Shown here: in pieces, positions 7,251 to 32,000 of the stretch
Layout: every line of letters begins with the position of its first letter
How positions within the stretch are numbered: position 1 is the stretch's first letter
NCBI GenBank assembly: GCA_016839815.1
Contig: JAEOTM010000066.1
Location: forward strand, 52,116 to 84,115
DNA length: 32,000 nucleotides
DNA from: Candidatus Hodarchaeota archaeon
GTDB taxonomy: Archaea > Asgardarchaeota > Heimdallarchaeia > Hodarchaeales > Hodarchaeaceae
Direction: 5' to 3'
Notes under the pieces: model-generated
Told to the model about the DNA's origin: nothing
The model's input: only the letters and a program-made list of their open reading frames with translations
Database searches by the model: none
Translations under genes and position numbers: made by a program

Positions 7251-7358
7251 GCTGCTGTGGCTTAGTTGGTAGAGCGACAGACTCGTAAGGATTCTCGTAT
7301 TCCATGATATCTCCGAGTTATCTGTTGGCCGTGGGTTCAAGTCCCACCAGCAGCTCCA
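7251..7358 (+). tRNA. tRNA-Thr(CGU) with ~32-nt intron; CCA encoded
   Basis: Acceptor GCTGCTG/CAGCAGC with discriminator T, then CCA. D arm GCTT-AGTTGGTA-GAGC. Anticodon stem ACAGA/TCTGT with loop C-T-CGT-A-A interrupted by an intron. The 3' intron segment CGAGT can pair with ACTCG of the anticodon loop. T arm GTGGG-TTCAAGT-CCCAC. Confidence 0.85.
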
Positions 7359-23855: not shown

Positions 23856-25229
23856 TTACATTTGAACAGTATCATGAGAGGTTAATGTCTTAACCTCGAA
23901 TCCAAGATTTCTTACTGCTGCAGCATAATACTCTTGTGCACTGGGTTCACCGTGGACAGCATATATTTTTTGTGGGGAAGAATACTGGACCATCTGAACC
24001 AACCCCTCTAAGGAGGAATGCCCTGAAAACTGGAATTTTTGAACCTCAAGATCAAGAGAAACATCAAAAATTTGTCCAAAACCGTTATCCAATTCAAGGT
24101 TCTTCTCACCTCTCGCGATATCAGACCCTAATGTCCCATCAACTTGATAACCGACAATATACAGACCATTTTTTTTATCATTTCCACCCATTCGAAGGTA
24201 GTCATAAACAGGCCCTCCTTCCATCATTCCAGATGTAGTCAATATTATACTTTGCTGTTCACGGTCAATCAATAACTCACGCTTCTTGAATCGCTTCATT
24301 CTCATTGCCACATCATCAATAGTGTGAATTCCTTCGTGATCGAAAGGAGTTCTGTATCCTTTATCCTTAAGCTCTATTAAAATACGTGGAGAAACCCATT
24401 TTTCGTTCATATATCGCTCATAGACAGCATTCATGTCAAGAATCATACCATCTACATAAAGGGGGAATTTATGAAGAAATGAATCGAAATCACTTGCTAG
24501 ATAAGCCTGAATTTCCTGTGAACGACCAAGAGCAAAAGAGGGGATAATCGCTTTACCACCCCGAGAGTAACAACCTAGTAATGATTTTGTAAGATTAGCA
24601 GTAACTGTCTTTCGTCCCTCAATCCTTCTATTAGCGTTGGTTGTTTCAGTTATCAGAATATCAATCGGATCATCTGGGTCTGGAAATTGAATGGGATCAT
24701 GATATGGTGTTTTTGCATCATTGTAATCCCCAGTGTACAAAATACGCGTCCCCTCCCAATCAAGGAGAATGATCGCACTCCCCAATATGTGACTTGCATC
24801 AAGAAATTCAGCAGTAATCCCGTTCGTGATTTTAAATTTCCTACGATAATTGTGAGTTTCAACTTTCATCAAAGCTGTCTGTAAGTGTGAAATACCATAA
24901 TGATGAGGACCTTCTATCTTTAAATGATCTTTCCAAAGAATATGTACAATATCCTTGGTTGGAGTGGTCATATGGATAGGCCCATGGTATCCAGCGCGGT
25001 ATAGAGCTGGAGTATATCCGGAATGATCAATATGAGCATGAGAAATAAGCACCGCATCGGTATCCTCAGCATATTTATCGACCTCAGGGGGGGTAGAGAC
25101 ACGGCCAGTTCTTCGGGGATGTAATTGAATTCCAGCGTCAAGAACCACTCTTCGATGGTCATTATCAGAAATCATGACACAGGATTTTCCTACAGAGTCA
25201 GATGCGCCGAGTATACTAATTTCTAACAT
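23856..25229 (-). CDS. beta-CASP metallo-beta-lactamase ribonuclease (aCPSF2-like, no KH domains)
   Basis: LGASDSVGKSCVMI...VVLDAGI...DAVLISHAHIDHSGYTPALY...GPIHMTTPT is typical of the family. The C-terminal motif is FSGHSS...AVHGEP. Confidence 0.75.
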   Translation of the reverse strand: MLEISILGASDSVGKSCVMISDNDHRRVVLDAGIQLHPRRTGRVSTPPEVDKYAEDTDAVLISHAHIDHSGYTPALYRAGYHGPIHMTTPTKDIVHILWKDHLKIEGPHHYGISHLQTALMKVETHNYRRKFKITNGITAEFLDASHILGSAIILLDWEGTRILYTGDYNDAKTPYHDPIQFPDPDDPIDILITETTNANRRIEGRKTVTANLTKSLLGCYSRGGKAIIPSFALGRSQEIQAYLASDFDSFLHKFPLYVDGMILDMNAVYERYMNEKWVSPRILIELKDKGYRTPFDHEGIHTIDDVAMRMKRFKKRELLIDREQQSIILTTSGMMEGGPVYDYLRMGGNDKKNGLYIVGYQVDGTLGSDIARGEKNLELDNGFGQIFDVSLDLEVQKFQFSGHSSLEGLVQMVQYSSPQKIYAVHGEPSAQEYYAAAVRNLGFEVKTLTSHDTVQM

Positions 25230-28365: not shown

Positions 28366-30606
28366 CTAAGAGTCAAAAGCTTCTAAGATATATGAATATA
28401 TGTCCTTTTCAGAACCCTTCGAGATTTTTTGTAACCGTTGCACAATTAATTCAGGAGTCGATTTTGCATATGTGTAATACTTTGGTGTTCTATCGACAAT
28501 GAGCTCTAAATTTTCTGATAAACCTTTTGCTTCAATTCCATCAATTCGTAACTCTTCTTTTGTATATTTACTAATTGCCTGTGCTAAATGAGTAACAAAT
28601 ATTCCAACCGAGTCTGATGATCGGCCTAACAAATCTAAAAATGCTGCGATTACTCGTGCAGATGCCCCAGGTTCAGACATACTTTCCATCTCATCAGCTA
28701 GCACTAATCTTGAATTTGGACTCATGATCATTTTTGAGAGCGTTTTGAGTGTTGATTCGAACGCACCTGCATTCATGTGTCCAGTAGCTTTTCGATAGTA
28801 ATGTAGTTCTTTAAATCCACCAATTTTAGTGTTATGACATGGTACTGGCAATCCCATCTGACTAAGTATAGTAATAACGGCAATGGCTACCAATAGTGTT
28901 GTTTTACCACCACTATTGGCTCCTGATAGCAGTACTATCCGTTCTCCGTCTACTTTTTCTTCAATTCTACTCAGCTCACCTAAAGCATAAGAAACTGGTT
29001 CCACCTGTAACTGCCCTTTCATTTCTTGATGTGCTAAAAACAAGTTTCTTCCTTCTTTAAAGCATAATCCAGTGCCCTTTCCTTCAATGAAAATTGGTAA
29101 AGATAGTTTATATGCTCCTGCAAACTTTCCAATCATTAGAAGGTAGTCTAATTCCAACATGGTCTGGAGTCCTTGGACTGCGATTCGTTCATATTCCTGT
29201 AGCTTTTGGGCGAGGTCAACTTTAAGTTCAAAAGCTTTACTTGAACGTTTCTTTCTTATAAACTTAGTGAAACTAGTTTTAATCTCTTCTTGTGGGTCAA
29301 CCGGAAACTTTAGTTCACGAGGGAAAATACCATTTAAATAATCAGTTTCTTCATCCGATAAATTCAATTTTGATCCTAAATTAATCTCTGCTTTGTTAAC
29401 AATCTCTTCTACAGCCAAAAATAACTCATCATCCAGATATTCACGAATATCTTCTTGACTGGAATTTACTGCATATCCCTGTCTCTCAGCAGAAAATCCC
29501 TTGAGTAACGCCAGGATCTTTTCACCACCCAAATGGATAGTTGTGTCCTGCAATTTCTTTTCTAATTCTTCATTTAATCGCATTAATTCTTCTTCTAAAA
29601 CCATCTCAAATGTGGTTTCAATGTTTAAAAGCCGTGAAAATTCAAAATTTATATCTGAACTGGGTTCTCCAGTCTCTTCCAGTTTTTCAAGCTCCTTTCC
29701 CATATCTATCAATGAGTTTAAGTCTAAATCCCCAATATACCTACTTAATTGTTCAGAAGGCAGCTTCTGAATAAAAGTTGCGAGTTTCGCTATTGTTACT
29801 AAGGAAGATTTGTTTTGTGCAAAAAAAACCAACGTTTTCTCGGGAAGTAGGCGATTAAGATCATGTCGCTGTGATTCAGATACTGAAATAATATTGGGGA
29901 GCTCATCACTAAGAATATAGTCACTACCAATCCAGATTACCTCATCTGATCCAGTTAATGTGTCATTGATAGTTTCATAATCCTCTATATGGAGAATTTC
30001 ACAATACTTACCGATTATGCTTGAAAGGAGGTCATTGTAGATGCTCTTATCTGTTGTAGCAATAGATCGCGAAGCACTATCAATAGCATCTGAATGGTCC
30101 TTTAATGGAAGTAACCGTCGTAACAGCAAATCAAATTCAGAAACTGGAGTACTGGAATTTTTGATTGTTGTGAATAATTCTTGTCCTAGTAGAGTTACTT
30201 TCTGGCGTTCTTTAATTTTATTCAATGCAGTAATAGGCAATGGAAAGTATAAGAATAATTTAGATCGAGCATAGAATGTATTACCAAACTTAGACACTAA
30301 ATCAATTATACGGTTGTAAAGCAAAATTGTGTCTTCAGTTTTTAAAAAATCTTGGATCTGCTCACCAGTTTCCTGGAAATGTAGATTTCTACACAAACTA
30401 AGGGCAAATCGCTCACCAATTCCCTCAATAGAGGAAATTTCAGCAATTCGTGATCCTCTCAAGGCGTCAAGAACACGATTTTCGCTTCCAAAATAGGAAA
30501 CGAGCTTCTTCTCAATGGAAGGACCAACTCCTCGAATCTCACGAAGTTTTGTCTCGTTCAAATCCATCACCGCACTTTTTACACTATAAAGGGCAGAATA
30601 ATACAA
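28366..30606 (-). CDS. Archaeal MutS-like ABC ATPase (MutS domain V) with N-terminal tandem helix-hairpin-helix motifs; no Smr or mismatch-binding domain seen
   Basis: HhH motifs are IRGVGPSIEKKL and IEGIGERFA. Walker A is LLSGANSGGKTTLL. The signature-like segment is GAFESTLKTL. Walker B is LVLADEMESMSEPG. FVTH is present. The listed start is TTG; an alternative ATG is at 30567. Confidence 0.7.
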   Translation of the reverse strand: MYYSALYSVKSAVMDLNETKLREIRGVGPSIEKKLVSYFGSENRVLDALRGSRIAEISSIEGIGERFALSLCRNLHFQETGEQIQDFLKTEDTILLYNRIIDLVSKFGNTFYARSKLFLYFPLPITALNKIKERQKVTLLGQELFTTIKNSSTPVSEFDLLLRRLLPLKDHSDAIDSASRSIATTDKSIYNDLLSSIIGKYCEILHIEDYETINDTLTGSDEVIWIGSDYILSDELPNIISVSESQRHDLNRLLPEKTLVFFAQNKSSLVTIAKLATFIQKLPSEQLSRYIGDLDLNSLIDMGKELEKLEETGEPSSDINFEFSRLLNIETTFEMVLEEELMRLNEELEKKLQDTTIHLGGEKILALLKGFSAERQGYAVNSSQEDIREYLDDELFLAVEEIVNKAEINLGSKLNLSDEETDYLNGIFPRELKFPVDPQEEIKTSFTKFIRKKRSSKAFELKVDLAQKLQEYERIAVQGLQTMLELDYLLMIGKFAGAYKLSLPIFIEGKGTGLCFKEGRNLFLAHQEMKGQLQVEPVSYALGELSRIEEKVDGERIVLLSGANSGGKTTLLVAIAVITILSQMGLPVPCHNTKIGGFKELHYYRKATGHMNAGAFESTLKTLSKMIMSPNSRLVLADEMESMSEPGASARVIAAFLDLLGRSSDSVGIFVTHLAQAISKYTKEELRIDGIEAKGLSENLELIVDRTPKYYTYAKSTPELIVQRLQKISKGSEKDIYSYILEAFDS

Positions 30607-30633
30607 GATCTCAATTATTAGTACTGTTTTTTC

Positions 30634-31545
30634 TTAAATTTTTGTGATTTCCTTCGCATTTATGAGGTCAATAAACTTATGAACCTCATTATAGGAACAA
30701 TGATCTGAATAGGGGAAGTAATGGACATCTAATCGTTTAGAGAGTAATTCGATTGCCCAACCTGTAGGTGAGATTCGCAAGGAGTTCATCAAGCGTGCTT
30801 CTGTCTGTTGATCTAATCCCGAAAGGTTTTCTACTCGTCTTCTACTCTCAACGCATATCCCAGACTCTGGATCATCAGTAAAAATGTTCCAATCTCCTCC
30901 AATTTCCTTATAAATTTCTACTTTTTTATCAGGAGCGAATATCTTAACCTTTAATGCATCACTTATCGTTTTTAACAATTTTTCCTTTCCTATCTGATAT
31001 GCAGCAATCCAAATTTATTTTTGAGGATAGTTACCTTCCGTTAGCATCAGCGCTAAGATTTCTGAGATTAAATCCTTTCGTGATGGAAATTTGTACTTGG
31101 GATTCTTACCATATGTGTAATCCACCCATAGATGATCTGCATTACTCAGAAGATCTAATTCATCTAGAATGGGAGTTCCCAAGCGAAAATCTCCTGTATA
31201 AACTTCTTTTATATGCTCTGTTGAATCAATTACAAACATTAGACTGCCTAAACAATGATTTGCGTCTATTGCGTGTACCACAAAATCATCGAAATCTAAA
31301 GATTGGTTTGTGTCCATAATCAGACATTTTTCTTTAGGAATCCTATGTAGAACTTTGAGAGCAGCAGCTGTTTCTCTAGAACAAACTATAGTTGCATCAG
31401 AGGAGGAAAGAACTGATTGTATTCCACTAGTGTGATCACTATGAGCATGAGAAAGAAAAAAGTAATCGGACGAGATAGCTAGCTTTTTTCTCTGACGAAA
31501 CGGAAATTCATCGAAATAACTATTTGCTACCTTTGAAAAAACCAT
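30634..31545 (-). pseudogene. SNM1/Pso2/Artemis-type (DRMBL, beta-CASP) DNA nuclease gene interrupted by one in-frame TAA (31015-31017)
   Basis: ORFs 31545-31015 and 30978-30634 are in the same frame. The 12 codons between them read IWIAAYQIGKEK, which continues the family motif. Family motifs present: FLSHAHSDHTSG, DANHCLGS, YTGDFR, LWVDYTYG, IGKEKLL, FPYSDHCSY. Confidence 0.7.
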
Positions 31546-31744: not shown

Positions 31745-31767
31745 AGAAAGAAAAAAATAATAAAAAG
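31745..31767 (-). terminator. Oligo-T tract downstream of the permuted 5S unit (candidate archaeal terminator)
   Basis: The minus strand reads CACUUUUUAUUAUUUUUUUCUUUC about 30-50 nt after the trailer helix. Archaeal RNA polymerase terminates at T-runs. Confidence 0.35.
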
Positions 31768-31797
31768 TGTTTGAATCTCAAAGCGCTTTTTCTCTAG

Positions 31798-31942
31798 GGG
31801 ACATTGTTTCCGGGTTCGGAATGAGACCGGGTGTGACTCAGGCCCTTTGGCCGAAGAACCTTCAGCTTTCCGATGTTCCCGTAGGCGCGAGCACAACAGT
31901 ACAGATCAGAACGGAGCCTGACTTAACTTTCGGCAATATCTC
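31798..31942 (-). other. Leader/trailer processing helix forming a bulge-helix-bulge-like motif around the permuted 5S
   Basis: The leader GAGAUAUUG (31942-31934) pairs with the trailer CAAUGUCCC (31806-31798). The inner symmetric core is UUG-CCG-AAA-GUU on the leader side against AAC-(C)CGG-AAA-CAA on the trailer side. This gives two AAA bulges on opposite strands separated by a 3-4 bp helix. Confidence 0.5.
31807..31930 (-). rRNA. Circularly permuted 5S rRNA gene (3' half, GUU cap, 5' half)
   Basis: The minus strand reads in this order:
- AAAGUUAAG
- UCAGGCU (helix II 3' strand)
- CUGAU CUGUACUG ... ACGGGAAC AUCGG (helix V and loop E)
- GCUGAAG-GUU-CUUCGGC (helix I closed as a hairpin)
- CAAAG
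- GGCCUGA (helix II 5' strand)
- CACACCCGGUCUCAUUCCGAACCCGGAA (the near-universal helix III/loop C block)
Total content is about 121 nt. The region is a GC-rich island in AT-rich DNA. Confidence 0.7.
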
Positions 31943-32000
31943 ACAGGATATTTTAGCGCGTGTTTCAGCACAAGACGTCTGTTTGCGAGATTACAAACCA

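What the first reader, a model, noticed from the sequence alone, without database searches (positions are those of the whole stretch)
31797..31942. A complete 5S rRNA encoded in circularly permuted order
On the minus strand, every 5S element is present but the order is rotated.

Order as read:
- First comes the 3' half: AAGUUAAG, helix II 3' strand UCAGGCU, helix V CUGAU, loop E CUGUACUG/ACGGGAAC, helix V' AUCGG, and helix I 3' strand GCUGAAG.
- Next is a 3-nt cap, GUU.
- Last comes the 5' half: helix I 5' strand CUUCGGC, loop A CAAAG, helix II 5' strand GGCCUGA, and the highly conserved block CACACCCGGUCUCAUUCCGAACCCGGAA.

Support for a rotated molecule:
- GCUGAAG/CUUCGGC and GGCCUGA/UCAGGCU each give 7 bp (one G-U each), and they fit a 5S fold only if the molecule is read as rotated.
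- The summed length is about 121 nt, which is one full 5S.
- Sequence upstream of AAGUUAAG and downstream of CCCGGAA is not 5S-like, so this is not two tandem copies.

The normal termini are sealed by a triloop. The gene ends fall in loop B, between helices III and II.

A collinear covariance model would report at most fragments, so such a gene would be scored as missing. I know of gene-level permutation for some tRNA genes and organellar 5S genes, but I am not aware of it for an archaeal 5S.
Basis: partly seen in the sequence, partly recalled or inferred. Interest (0 to 1): 0.93.

Follow-up and report, generated by a model that had tools for sequence, protein, structure and literature searches.

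The report
Circularly permuted archaeal 5S rRNA gene
This Asgard (Heimdall-group) archaeon encodes its 5S ribosomal RNA with the back half before the front half. Flanking sequences look built for the tRNA-splicing enzymes to cut and rejoin it, probably into a circle, which would explain why 5S genes seem to be missing from these genomes.

Summary

**The gene.** On the minus strand, 31927..31808 holds a complete 120-nt 5S rRNA in rotated order:
- G52 to the helix I 3' strand
- a GUU cap
- the helix I 5' strand to A51

**Tests.**
- Rfam's collinear model finds only sub-threshold fragments.
- A covariance model built from eight ordinary archaeal 5S genes, rotated in silico, hits the native sequence full length (97.7 bits, E=7e-24).
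- The same order occurs at 19 further loci. Most are in MAGs labelled Heimdall-, Hod-, Hermod- or Promethearchaeota, and most with enough flank are syntenic. They score 92.6-108.6 bits, against 30-53 bits for collinear 5S loci.
- Compensatory changes occur in helices I, II, IV and V.

**New finding.** A covarying leader/trailer stem ends in a bulge-helix-bulge-like motif: leader CCGR-AA|G and trailer side CCGG-AA|A. Cutting in the same register as the window's own tRNA intron, then ligating, recreates the canonical ...CCCGGAA-GUUAAG... sequence.

**Best explanation.** The tRNA-splicing endonuclease plus the RtcB ligase make a circular 5S, as shown for Thermoproteus SRP RNA. No transcripts were examined, so circularity is inferred.

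**Novelty.** I found no description of this in the searchable literature. One paper reports that 5S genes "could not be predicted" in complete Heimdallarchaeum genomes.

The parts
31928..32000 (-). 5' leader of the 5S precursor. It is probably almost complete. The TATA box is expected just beyond the window end.
   Evidence: Related loci have a TATA-like box (TATATAAAG or ATATTTAAAG) 85-102 nt upstream of G52 (65 nt in L007). In the closest relative, L040, it lies at -100/-102, which corresponds to about 32027 in window coordinates. The position of the transcription start is inferred.
31987..31999 (-). Outermost leader strand, GGUUUGUAAUCUC. It pairs with trailer 31779..31769.
   Evidence: Minimum-free-energy and centroid folds of the 235-nt precursor; leader/trailer cofold.
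31955..31959 (-). Middle stem, leader strand GCGCU. It pairs with AGCGC at 31787..31783.
   Evidence: Equivalent stems with different sequences occur in other lineages: GCGCC/GGCGC, ACGCC/GGCGU, UUGCG/CGCAA, and GAGACGCGUG/CACGCGUCUC in L007.
31934..31942 (-). Helix h, leader strand GAGAUAUUG. This is the exon-side helix of the BHB-like motif.
   Evidence: It pairs with 31806..31798. Five of its 9 pairs show compensatory double changes across 14 distinct sequences.
31930..31933 (-). Central-helix strand in the leader. It reads CCGA in the window and CCGG or CUGG in other lineages.
   Evidence: It is conserved although it is not part of mature 5S. It can pair with CCGG at 31813..31810, with three standard pairs plus an A-C mismatch in the window.
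31928..31929 (-). Leader bulge AA. The predicted 5' cleavage site lies between 31928 and 31927 (AA|G52).
   Evidence: The register is the same as in the window's own tRNA intron BHB: 2 nt 3' of the 4-bp helix. Cleavage itself is inferred.
31860..31927 (-). 3' part of 5S rRNA, encoded first. It runs G52-UUAAG, helix II 3' strand, helix V, loop E, helix IV, helix V', helix I 3' strand (GCUGAAG).
   Evidence: Alignment to rotated model R1; fold.
31857..31859 (-). GUU cap joining the normal 3' and 5' termini of 5S (tip of helix I).
   Evidence: The cap varies between lineages: GUU, AUU, UUU, AAUUA, CUCG.
31808..31856 (-). 5' part of 5S rRNA, encoded second. It runs helix I 5' strand (CUUCGGC), loop A, helix II 5' strand, helix III and loop C, to A51.
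   Evidence: Rfam fragment hits; R1 alignment.
31810..31813 (-). CCGG (C46-G49). It is the 3' strand of helix III in mature 5S, and the proposed partner of the leader CCGR in the precursor's central BHB helix.
   Evidence: It is invariant, so covariation cannot distinguish the two pairings.
31807..31809 (-). 3-nt bulge AAA (A50, A51 and the first trailer A). The predicted 3' cleavage site lies between 31808 and 31807 (AA|A).
   Evidence: Invariant in all 14 distinct sequences. It forms a canonical 3-nt bulge between h and the central helix in cofolds of group-B sequences.
31798..31806 (-). Helix h, trailer strand CAAUGUCCC.
   Evidence: Covaries with 31942..31934.
31751..31797 (-). Rest of the 3' trailer. 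It contains AGCGC (31787..31783), GAGAUUCAAAC (31779..31769) and the oligo-T tracts T5 (31766..31762) and T7 (31757..31751).
   Evidence: T-runs of 4 or more begin 28-53 nt after A51 in the 19 loci with enough downstream flank, and are T5 or longer in all but L012. Their reading as an archaeal oligo-T terminator is inferred.

Best explanation
This is the functional 5S rRNA gene of a Heimdall-group Asgard archaeon, encoded in circularly permuted order.

**Proposed pathway**
1. A stand-alone unit of about 235 nt is transcribed, from a TATA promoter about 100 nt upstream of G52 to an oligo-T tract about 42 nt after A51.
2. The leader and trailer pair along their whole length into a processing stem.
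3. The innermost part of that stem is a bulge-helix-bulge-like motif:
   - leader 5'-h(GAGAUAUUG)-CCGR-AA|G52...
   - trailer side ...C46CGG49-A50A51|A-h'(CAAUGUCCC)-3'
4. The tRNA-splicing endonuclease cuts two nucleotides 3' of the central 4-bp helix on each strand. In Asgard archaea this enzyme is the broad-specificity (alpha-beta)2 type.
5. The RtcB ligase joins A51 to G52. This restores the universal ...CCCGGAA-GUUAAG... sequence of helix III.
6. The product is a 120-nt covalently closed 5S rRNA whose normal termini are sealed by a 3-nt loop.

**Shown here:** the permuted order, full 5S identity, conservation and covariation of all helices and of the leader/trailer stem, and a cleavage register that gives the canonical junction.

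**Inferred:** transcription limits, cleavage by EndA, ligation, and that the mature form stays circular.

**Likely origin (inference):** a tandem 5S duplication that lost its outer halves. The leader still carries the 6-nt relic CCGGAA of the upstream copy. Because CCGG is a palindrome, that relic supplies the central BHB helix.
For: **Identity and order**
- Rotated model R1, built only from normal archaeal 5S genes, hits the native DNA at 31927..31808(-) over positions 1-120 at 97.7 bits, E=7e-24.
- The HMM test gives 68.8 bits for the rotated sequence, against fragments of 38.9 and 20.3 bits in swapped order for the native sequence.
- The rotated sequence folds as a canonical 5S.

**Not an artefact or relic**
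- There are 19 further permuted loci from independent assemblies. All score 92.6-108.6 bits with R1, whereas collinear 5S loci score 30-53 bits.
- In most loci that retain enough downstream flank, an SNM1-like and a MutS-like gene lie next to the 5S gene. In L007 they are rearranged.

**Selection on structure**
- 96.5% of cells are paired.
- 17 pairs carry double changes.
- 0 of 500 shuffles reach the observed values.
- Slid controls pair in 27-48% of cells.
- Pairs with compensatory changes: helix I 3, helix II 4, helix V 3, helix IV 2.

**Processing stem**
- Helix h has compensatory changes at 5 of 9 pairs.
- Further outer stems are present in every lineage, with different sequences.

**BHB register**
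- The leader's last six nucleotides (CCGRAA) and the trailer's ACA are conserved although they are not mature sequence.
- In group-B sequences the two-strand minimum-free-energy fold is h(9 bp) - AAA bulge - CCGG/CCGG.
- The window's own tRNA-Thr intron (7251-7355) has the motif ACAGA-CUCG-UA|a...CGAG-UU|A-UCUGU. Cleavage there is 2 nt 3' of the central helix. The same rule applied here yields exactly ...GGAA|GUUAAG....

**Literature**
- Precedent: the permuted Thermoproteus SRP RNA is cut at a leader/trailer BHB by EndA and is circular (PMC4731332).
- Asgard archaea, including a Heimdall genome, have (alpha-beta)2 EndA with the L1 loop, linked there to broad, relaxed-BHB substrate specificity (PMC5829648).
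- Circular 16S and 23S transcripts have been seen in Asgard archaea (PMC12918454).
- E. coli ribosomes work with a 5S whose native ends are joined by a 4-nt connector (PMC7283268).
- 5S genes 'could not be predicted' in two complete Heimdallarchaeum genomes (PMC8813620).
Against: - No RNA data were available. Transcription, cleavage and ligation are all inferred.
- The motif is not a perfect hBHBh'. On the leader side the bulge is either 2 nt (AA, with a 3-bp h' of G52-C45, U53-A44, U54-A43) or 3 nt with no h' (bulge-helix-loop).
- In the window and in half of the sequences the central helix has an A-C mismatch (CCGA against CCGG).
- RNAalifold and RNAfold prefer a competing conformer in which the leader CCG pairs with C29-G32, the 5' strand of helix III. 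Both possible partners are invariant CCGG, so covariation cannot decide between them.
- The precursor's folding energy is unremarkable (z = -1.12).
- A preprint lists a '5S rRNA gene' in a Hodarchaeum MAG (10.1101/2021.02.19.431964). That could be a partial HMM hit to this gene, or it could be a true collinear copy.
- Whole genomes could not be scanned for a collinear 5S.
Confidence: 0.7

Rival explanations
1. The gene is permuted, and the mature 5S stays linear and permuted. The leader and trailer are trimmed, by EndA or other nucleases, but A51 and G52 are not ligated. The ribosome then carries a 5S with a nick in helix III and a capped helix I.
For: - The nick would lie next to an internal loop. 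It is flanked by helix III (4+2 bp) on one side and by G52-C26, U53-A25 and helix II on the other, so the fold could hold together.
- Brown-algal mitochondrial 5S rRNAs are permuted in the final linear product (PMC4267664).
- The BHB is imperfect in the window.
Against: - The predicted cuts fall exactly where ligation recreates the universal CCCGGAA-GUUAAG sequence.
- For tRNA introns and Thermoproteus SRP RNA, BHB cleavage by EndA is described as followed by RtcB joining and circularisation (PMC4731332). Circular 16S and 23S rRNAs are reported in archaea, including Asgard (PMC12918454).
- The A50-A51/G52 region is among the most conserved parts of 5S.
Confidence: 0.15
2. The RNA is circularised only transiently. 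The circle is then re-opened at the helix I cap to give an ordinary linear 5S with conventional termini. This is how permuted tRNAs mature in Cyanidioschyzon, and it resembles the re-linearisation of archaeal pre-16S and pre-23S circles.
For: - Permuted tRNA genes mature through a circular intermediate that is re-opened (PMC3978253; cited in PMC4267664).
- Circular pre-16S and pre-23S rRNAs are widely thought to be re-linearised (PMC12918454).
Against: - The cap is only 3-5 nt.
- Its sequence is not conserved: GUU, AUU, UUU, AAUUA, CUCG.
- Unlike permuted tRNA genes, it has no intervening sequence, tRNA-like element or second BHB to direct a nuclease.
- The permuted Thermoproteus SRP RNA stays circular (PMC4731332).
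Confidence: 0.08
3. The locus is a non-functional rearranged relic or an assembly artefact, for example a collapsed tandem repeat. The real 5S would be a collinear gene elsewhere.
For: - Whole genomes could not be scanned here.
- One preprint reports a 5S gene in a Hodarchaeum MAG (10.1101/2021.02.19.431964).
- In two MAGs the contigs end at this gene.
Against: - The same order is found in 20 loci from many independent assemblies, at 66-77% nucleotide identity in the flanks.
- Compensatory substitutions maintain every helix, including the capped helix I.
- Promoter-like and terminator-like elements and the processing stem are conserved.
- Rfam finds no collinear 5S in the window or in the 14 genome-derived permuted loci, about 98 kb in total.
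- 5S genes could not be found in complete Heimdallarchaeum genomes (PMC8813620).
Confidence: 0.02

Closest known systems
Permuted, circular SRP RNA of Thermoproteus (Plagens et al. 2015, PMC4731332)
   Same: - An essential, universally conserved structured RNA is encoded with its 3' part before its 5' part.
- The leader and trailer pair into a BHB at the new termini.
- EndA cleavage plus ligation restores the conserved element.
- The normal termini are replaced by continuous sequence.
- Standard models miss the gene.
   Different: - The RNA is different (5S rRNA, a ribosome component) and so is the lineage (Asgard, not Thermoproteales).
- The BHB here is partly made of mature sequence, the palindromic CCGG of helix III.
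- The BHB here is relaxed on one side.
- Circularity and EndA cleavage were shown experimentally there. Here they are only predicted.
Circularly permuted tRNA genes (Cyanidioschyzon merolae; Soma 2014, PMC3978253)
   Same: - The 3' half lies upstream of the 5' half.
- A BHB forms from the flanks.
- The RNA passes through a circular stage.
   Different: - Those circles are re-opened at an intervening sequence by tRNA end-processing enzymes.
- Here the cap is 3-5 nt with no such signal, so the circle is probably the end product.
Permuted mitochondrial 5S rRNA of brown algae (Rfam mtPerm-5S; Valach et al. 2014, PMC4267664)
   Same: The RNA is a 5S rRNA whose helix I is closed into a hairpin and whose termini lie elsewhere.
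   Different: - It is organellar.
- Its termini lie at the three-way junction, between domains alpha and gamma, not in helix III.
- The final RNA is linear and permuted.
- It has no BHB or processing stem.
- No mtPerm-5S hit was reported for this region.
Circular pre-16S and pre-23S rRNA, and circular or permuted 23S rRNA, in archaea (PMC12918454, PMC7758197)
   Same: - Long leader/trailer processing stems carry BHB motifs.
- EndA and ligase circularise the excised rRNA.
- This has been seen in Asgard archaea.
   Different: - Those genes are collinear and the circularisation junction lies at the normal termini.
- These papers state that 5S rRNA does not take part in this pathway.
- Here the gene itself is permuted and the junction lies inside the conserved core.
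Engineered circularly permuted 5S in E. coli (Huang et al. 2020, PMC7283268)
   Same: - The native 5S ends are joined by a short connector.
- The molecule is opened elsewhere.
- The ribosomes are functional.
   Different: - It is artificial.
- It is opened in loop C or loop D and fused into 23S rRNA.
- No ligation step is involved.

Membership tests
5S rRNA (Rfam RF00001) | Three-way junction with helices I-V, the conserved loop C / helix III block and the loop E region, about 120 nt | tested here: met
   The rotated sequence folds canonically. It matches a model of eight normal archaeal 5S genes over all 120 positions and 36 pairs, with one non-standard pair, at 97.7 bits. HMM score 68.8 bits.
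5S rRNA (Rfam RF00001) | Collinear gene order that reaches the family gathering score (38 bits) | tested here: not met
   The native sequence gives only 20.8, 19.1 and 16.6 bits. None of the 14 related loci tested reaches the gathering score. The failure is one of order, not of content.
5S rRNA (Rfam RF00001) | Structure maintained by compensatory evolution | tested here: met
   17 pairs carry double changes, 96.5% of cells are paired, 0 of 500 shuffles reach the observed values, and slid controls pair in at most 48% of cells.
BHB-processed permuted non-coding RNA genes (Thermoproteus SRP RNA type) | The 3' part is encoded upstream of the 5' part in one transcription unit | tested here: met
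   A promoter-like TATA box and oligo-T tract flank the unit in related loci. Transcription itself was not observed.
BHB-processed permuted non-coding RNA genes (Thermoproteus SRP RNA type) | Leader and trailer pair to form a BHB: a 4-bp helix flanked by 3-nt bulges (at least one) | tested here: inconclusive
   - Helix h covaries.
- The trailer-side half is canonical: 9-bp h, AAA bulge, CCGG/CCGG (group B).
- The leader-side bulge is 2 nt with a 3-bp h', or 3 nt without an h'.
- The window has CCGA, giving an A-C mismatch.
- A competing conformer is predicted by the folding programs.
BHB-processed permuted non-coding RNA genes (Thermoproteus SRP RNA type) | Predicted cleavage sites, once ligated, restore the conserved sequence | tested here: met
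   AA|G52 and A50A51|A give ...CCCGGAA-GUUAAG..., identical to collinear 5S genes. The register was calibrated on the window's own tRNA intron.
BHB-processed permuted non-coding RNA genes (Thermoproteus SRP RNA type) | Circular junction reads, and cleavage by the splicing endonuclease | not testable with these tools
   No transcriptome data or enzymology were available. Literature only: Asgard archaea have broad-specificity (alpha-beta)2 EndA (PMC5829648), and Asgard rRNAs are circularised (PMC12918454).
mtPerm-5S (Rfam RF02547) | Termini at the three-way junction; matches the mtPerm-5S model | tested here: not met
   No such hit appeared in the permissive Rfam scans of the region. The break here lies between A51 and G52 in helix III.

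The most novel reading that the evidence does not exclude
- Ribosomes of Heimdall-group Asgard archaea (Hodarchaeales and relatives, the archaea usually placed closest to eukaryotes) contain a covalently closed circular 5S rRNA.
- It is made from a permuted gene by the tRNA-splicing endonuclease and RtcB. This would be the first cellular, non-organellar permuted 5S gene and the first circular 5S.
- The permutation is an ancient shared derived character of the group. As a rare genomic change, it would bear on whether eukaryotes, which have collinear 5S genes, branch inside or outside this clade.
Probability: 0.55. Interest if true: 0.88.

Novelty: new variant of a known kind. Interest (0 to 1): 0.82.

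Why it matters
1. **It explains a practical puzzle.** 5S rRNA genes 'could not be predicted' in complete Heimdallarchaeum genomes (PMC8813620). Rfam-based annotation misses every locus tested here. These genomes therefore look as if they lack an essential rRNA, and they fail the rRNA criterion of genome-quality standards. A rotated covariance model finds the gene cleanly, at 93-109 bits.

2. **It extends a known processing route to the ribosome core.** Recent papers state that archaeal 5S rRNA, unlike 16S and 23S, is not circularised. Here the tRNA-splicing machinery would be needed to make a functional 5S at all, and the product would probably be a circular ribosomal RNA.

3. **It could inform the origin of eukaryotes.** The permutation occurs at a conserved locus across lineages whose neighbouring proteins are only 31-41% identical in the most distant case, so it appears old. 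A rare, hard-to-reverse gene rearrangement in the archaea nearest to eukaryotes is a potentially useful phylogenetic character in the debate over where eukaryotes branch.

4. **It is directly testable.** Hodarchaeales cultures have been reported (bioRxiv 10.1101/2025.02.26.640444).

Tried and rejected
- **Exact-protein look-ups.** I tried to fetch the window's own contig using two window proteins. Neither is on record. The region beyond 32000, including the promoter, therefore had to be inferred from relatives.
- **ARAGORN.** It found only one of the two tRNAs.
- **First rotated reference alignment.** The alignment mixing bacterial and archaeal 5S genes with full-length helix I (A2; local trial) was badly aligned around the cap and in helices IV and V. 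I abandoned it for eight archaeal references with helix I trimmed to 6-7 bp (A3).
- **Alignment A1.** It misplaced the L007 trailer, so I remade it with short flanks (A4).
- **Explicit BHB energy.** The values are not reliable where the model contains A-C 'pairs'. I used only the minimum-free-energy structures.
- **Precursor fold energy.** It does not differ from shuffles (z = -1.12), so I make no argument from stability.
- **Viral-contig scans.** Scans for a collinear Heimdall-type junction and for further permuted genes found nothing.
- **Literature.** Searches for permuted or circular archaeal 5S found nothing relevant.
- **Considered and rejected:**
  - two tandem 5S copies, because the flanks are not 5S-like beyond the 6-nt CCGGAA relic
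  - a split two-piece 5S, because the halves are joined by the cap
  - membership of mtPerm-5S
Full report
**1. The observation**

The order is:
- ...CCGAAA | GUUAAG-UCAGGCU-...-GCUGAAG | GUU | CUUCGGC-CAAAG-GGCCUGA-...-CACACCCGGUCUCAUUCCGAACCCGGAA | ACAAUG...

Rotating the 120 nt at the GUU cap gives a sequence whose minimum-free-energy structure is the textbook 5S three-way junction. It has helix I, loop A, helices II and III with loop C, and helices V and IV with loop E.

**2.

*Collinear models on the native sequence.*
- Rfam at gathering thresholds finds two tRNAs and no 5S in the whole window.
- In permissive mode, RF00001 reports only fragments, against a gathering score of 38:
  - 20.8 bits for model positions 27-51
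  - 19.1 bits for positions 1-82, truncated
  - a poor global 16.6 bits

*Profile HMM.* Infernal cannot be run on an arbitrary rotated sequence here, so I made two equivalent tests.
- The rotated window sequence gives one full-length hit (hmm 7-114, 68.8 bits, E=8e-23).
- The native sequence gives two fragments in swapped order: hmm 6-68 at the 3' side (38.9 bits) and hmm 47-114 at the 5' side (20.3 bits).

*Rotated covariance model.* I took eight ordinary archaeal 5S genes: Archaeoglobaceae, Thermoplasmata, Sulfolobaceae, two Nitrososphaeria, two Iainarchaeum and Culexmicrobium.
- I rotated them in silico at A51|G52, trimmed helix I to 6-7 bp, and closed it with a neutral GAAA cap.
- I aligned them (A3), annotated the canonical structure, and built covariance model R1.
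- R1 contains no Asgard sequence.
- On the native window it gives a single hit at 31927..31808(-), model positions 1-120, 97.7 bits, E=7e-24, with one non-standard pair.

*Control.* The same model on all 53 fetched loci separates two classes cleanly.
- The 19 permuted loci score 92.6-108.6 bits, all full length.
- Collinear 5S loci score 30-53 bits. This includes the very genes the model was built from, in their native order.

**3. Related loci**

One pattern scan of 185,579 species-representative genomes for GTTAAG...(75-105 nt)...CCCGGNNNCATNNCGAACCCGGAA returned 48 loci.
- 34 are ordinary 5S genes with a chance GTTAAG upstream. I used these as references.
- 14 are truly permuted: after CCCGGAA comes ACA..., not GTTAAG.
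- By depositor label, these 14 come from MAGs or chromosomes called:
  - Candidatus Heimdallarchaeota (B3_Heim, MAG_8, bin76, bin6, bin272)
  - Hodarchaeota (YT1_021, YT2_065, WORE3)
  - 'Hermodarchaeota' (DZ1M.253)
  - Promethearchaeota, meaning Asgard (DZ3S.51, DZ2M.341)
  - two unclassified archaea (L033, L007)

A metagenome scan that excluded collinear genes added five more loci.

Rfam finds no 5S at gathering score in any of the 14 genome loci.

*Synteny.*
- The window is collinear with L009, L013, L043, L029 and L049 at about 75% nucleotide identity over 1.5-8 kb.
- With the second sequence group it shares the neighbouring genes at 66-68% identity.
- These neighbours are an SNM1-like metallo-beta-lactamase/DRMBL gene and a MutS-domain-V/HhH gene.
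- The same two genes lie near the permuted 5S in the GC-rich, distant L007. There they are rearranged and only 31-41% identical at the protein level.
- The locus therefore looks orthologous and vertically inherited, and the permutation looks old.

**4. Covariation**

On 14 distinct sequences (A4), the mature 5S structure plus the flanking helix gives these values:
- 96.5% of cells are paired.
- 17 pairs have changes on both sides.
- 0 of 500 column shuffles reach any observed measure.
- Slid controls drop to 27-48% paired.

Helix I, the capped helix, changes as follows:
- GCUGAAG/CUUCGGC (window)
- GCUGAGU/GCUCGGC
- GCUGGGU/ACCCGGC
- GUCGACC/GGUCGGC

The cap itself varies: GUU, AUU, UUU, AAUUA, CUCG.

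Helix II has 4 pairs with compensatory changes, helix V has 3 and helix IV has 2. This rules out a decaying relic or an assembly artefact.

**5.

*The stem.*
- RNAalifold on the region with 34-nt flanks predicts a leader/trailer helix with five compensatory pairs. Pair counting confirms it: 5 of 9 pairs show double changes.
- In the window this helix is GAGAUAUUG (31942..31934) pairing with CAAUGUCCC (31806..31798). Elsewhere the pairs are GAGACUCUG/CAGAGUCUC, GAAUCUCUG/CAGAGAUUC, GAGAUCCUG/CAGGAUCCC, and GGGUG/CACCC.
- Further out, every lineage has additional leader/trailer stems with its own sequence. The window has GCGCU/AGCGC and GGUUUG-UAAUCUC/GAGAUU-CAAAC. L007 has a 10-bp GAGACGCGUG/CACGCGUCUC.
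- The whole precursor is thus a long processing stem, like those around archaeal 16S and 23S rRNA.

*The conserved junction.* Between helix h and the mature sequence, the leader carries six conserved nucleotides that are not mature sequence:
- CCGGAA, CCGAAA, CUGGAA or CCGGAG
- The trailer always starts with ACA.

Because CCGG is a palindrome, the leader CCGR can pair with C46-G49. This gives:
- leader: h - CCGR - AA - G52...
- trailer side: ...CCGG - AAA - h

That is a 4-bp central helix with an unpaired stretch 3' of it on each strand, which is the BHB geometry.

*Calibrating the cleavage register.* I used the window's own intron-containing tRNA-Thr(CGU) at 7251-7355.
- Its motif is ACAGA-CUCG-UA|a...CGAG-UU|A-UCUGU.
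- It is cut two nucleotides 3' of the central helix on both strands, at the canonical 37/38 position.
- The same rule here gives AA|G52 and A50A51|A.
- Ligating the excised piece joins A51 to G52 and recreates ...CCCGGAA-GUUAAG..., exactly as in every collinear 5S gene.

This coincidence of register is the main argument for EndA cleavage and ligation.

**6. Weak points of the BHB model**

- The trailer-side half is canonical. In group-B sequences the minimum-free-energy fold of a two-strand mini-substrate is h(9 bp) - AAA - CCGG/CCGG.
- The leader-side bulge is either 2 nt, followed by a 3-bp h' (G52-C45, U53-A44, U54-A43), or 3 nt with no h' (bulge-helix-loop).
- In the window and in half of the sequences the fourth central pair is an A-C mismatch. 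For these, the mini-substrate fold prefers a local hairpin.
- RNAfold and RNAalifold prefer a competing conformer in which the leader CCG pairs with the 5' strand of helix III. Both partners are invariant, so covariation cannot choose between them.
- The precursor's energy is unremarkable (z = -1.12).
- Against these doubts, Asgard archaea, including a Heimdall genome, encode the (alpha-beta)2 EndA with the L1 loop, which that paper links to broad, relaxed-BHB substrate specificity (PMC5829648). Circular 16S and 23S transcripts have also been observed in Asgard archaea (PMC12918454).

**7. The transcription unit (inferred)**

- Related loci carry a TATA-like box (TATATAAAG or ATATTTAAAG) 85-102 nt upstream of G52, or 65 nt in L007.
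- T-runs of 4 or more begin 28-53 nt after A51.
- In the window the T5 and T7 tracts are at 31766..31762 and 31757..31751.
- By comparison with L040 (94.9% identical over 196 nt), the TATA box should lie at about 32027, just outside the window.
- No 16S or 23S gene is nearby, so the gene is a stand-alone unit.

**8. Mechanism and rivals**

*Best explanation (confidence about 0.7).* EndA cuts the leader/trailer motif, RtcB ligates, and the product is a 120-nt circular 5S. This matches the experimentally proven case of Thermoproteus SRP RNA (PMC4731332). A sealed helix I is compatible with function: E. coli ribosomes work with 5S whose native ends are joined by a 4-nt connector (PMC7283268).

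*Rivals.*
- A linear permuted 5S with an unligated nick at A51/G52 (about 0.15). Brown-algal mitochondrial 5S is a linear permuted precedent, although its break lies at the junction (PMC4267664).
- A circle that is re-opened at the cap (about 0.08). This is disfavoured because the cap is 3-5 nt, is not conserved, and lacks any processing signal.
- A relic or artefact (about 0.02).

*Probable origin (inference).* A tandem 5S duplication followed by loss of the outer halves. The leader's CCGGAA would be the remnant of the upstream copy.

**9. Novelty**

Seven full-text searches found no description of a permuted or circular archaeal 5S.
- Wu et al. report that 5S genes 'could not be predicted' in two complete Heimdallarchaeum genomes (PMC8813620).
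- One preprint lists a 5S gene in a Hodarchaeum MAG without giving the method (10.1101/2021.02.19.431964). HMM-based tools would report this locus as a partial 5S, but a true collinear copy cannot be excluded.
- The library does not cover subscription-only papers, so prior description elsewhere is possible.

In kind, this is a new variant of a known mechanism (BHB-dependent expression of permuted RNA genes) applied to a new and central substrate.

**10. Limits**

- No RNA data were available.
- No whole-genome scans for a collinear copy could be run.
- Taxonomy rests on depositors' labels.
- The window's own promoter lies outside the window.

Noticed in passing
window 31015-31017 (minus strand), within the ORF pair 31545..31015 and 30978..30634: The SNM1-like metallo-beta-lactamase/DRMBL gene just downstream of the 5S unit is interrupted by an in-frame TAA at codon 177. 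Ten orthologous loci have an uninterrupted 303-codon ORF over the same span. The six whose codons were read have GAA, GAG or GAT (Glu or Asp) at that position. This is a single G-to-T nonsense change or a sequencing error, specific to the window.
   Followed up: yes
window 7251-7355 (+): An intron-containing tRNA-Thr (anticodon CGU) with a 32-nt intron at the canonical 37/38 position and a textbook BHB. Rfam finds it (61.7 bits) but ARAGORN misses it. I used it as an internal reference for the cleavage register.
   Followed up: partly
L013 1-124, L040 3052-3174 (same MAG, YT1_021); L009 7866-8000: In two Hodarchaeota MAGs the contigs begin or end inside or right next to the permuted 5S gene. 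The two YT1_021 contigs overlap by the gene. This may reflect an assembly-graph branch, for instance more than one copy with different flanks, or a coverage effect. It remains unexplained.
   Followed up: no
window 28366-31545 (-); matching stretches in L009, L013, L043, L037, L012, L014, L017, L028, L038 and L007: The 5S gene is syntenic with the SNM1-like gene and a 746-aa MutS-domain-V protein with N-terminal helix-hairpin-helix motifs across the Heimdall-type loci. In the distant L007 the same genes are present but rearranged. The reason for this linkage is unknown.
   Followed up: partly
L003 35-161 and L035 5442-5574 (Thermoplasmatales / Thermoplasmatota MAGs): These otherwise normal collinear 5S genes have a 5' strand (...UUUGACGGCC...) for which I could not find a complementary helix I 3' strand within the expected distance. 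I excluded them from the reference set and did not examine them further.
   Followed up: no
window 23856-25229 (-): A beta-CASP/RMMBL metallo-beta-lactamase, an aCPSF-like ribonuclease, is encoded about 6.6 kb from the 5S gene. No link to 5S processing was tested.
   Followed up: no
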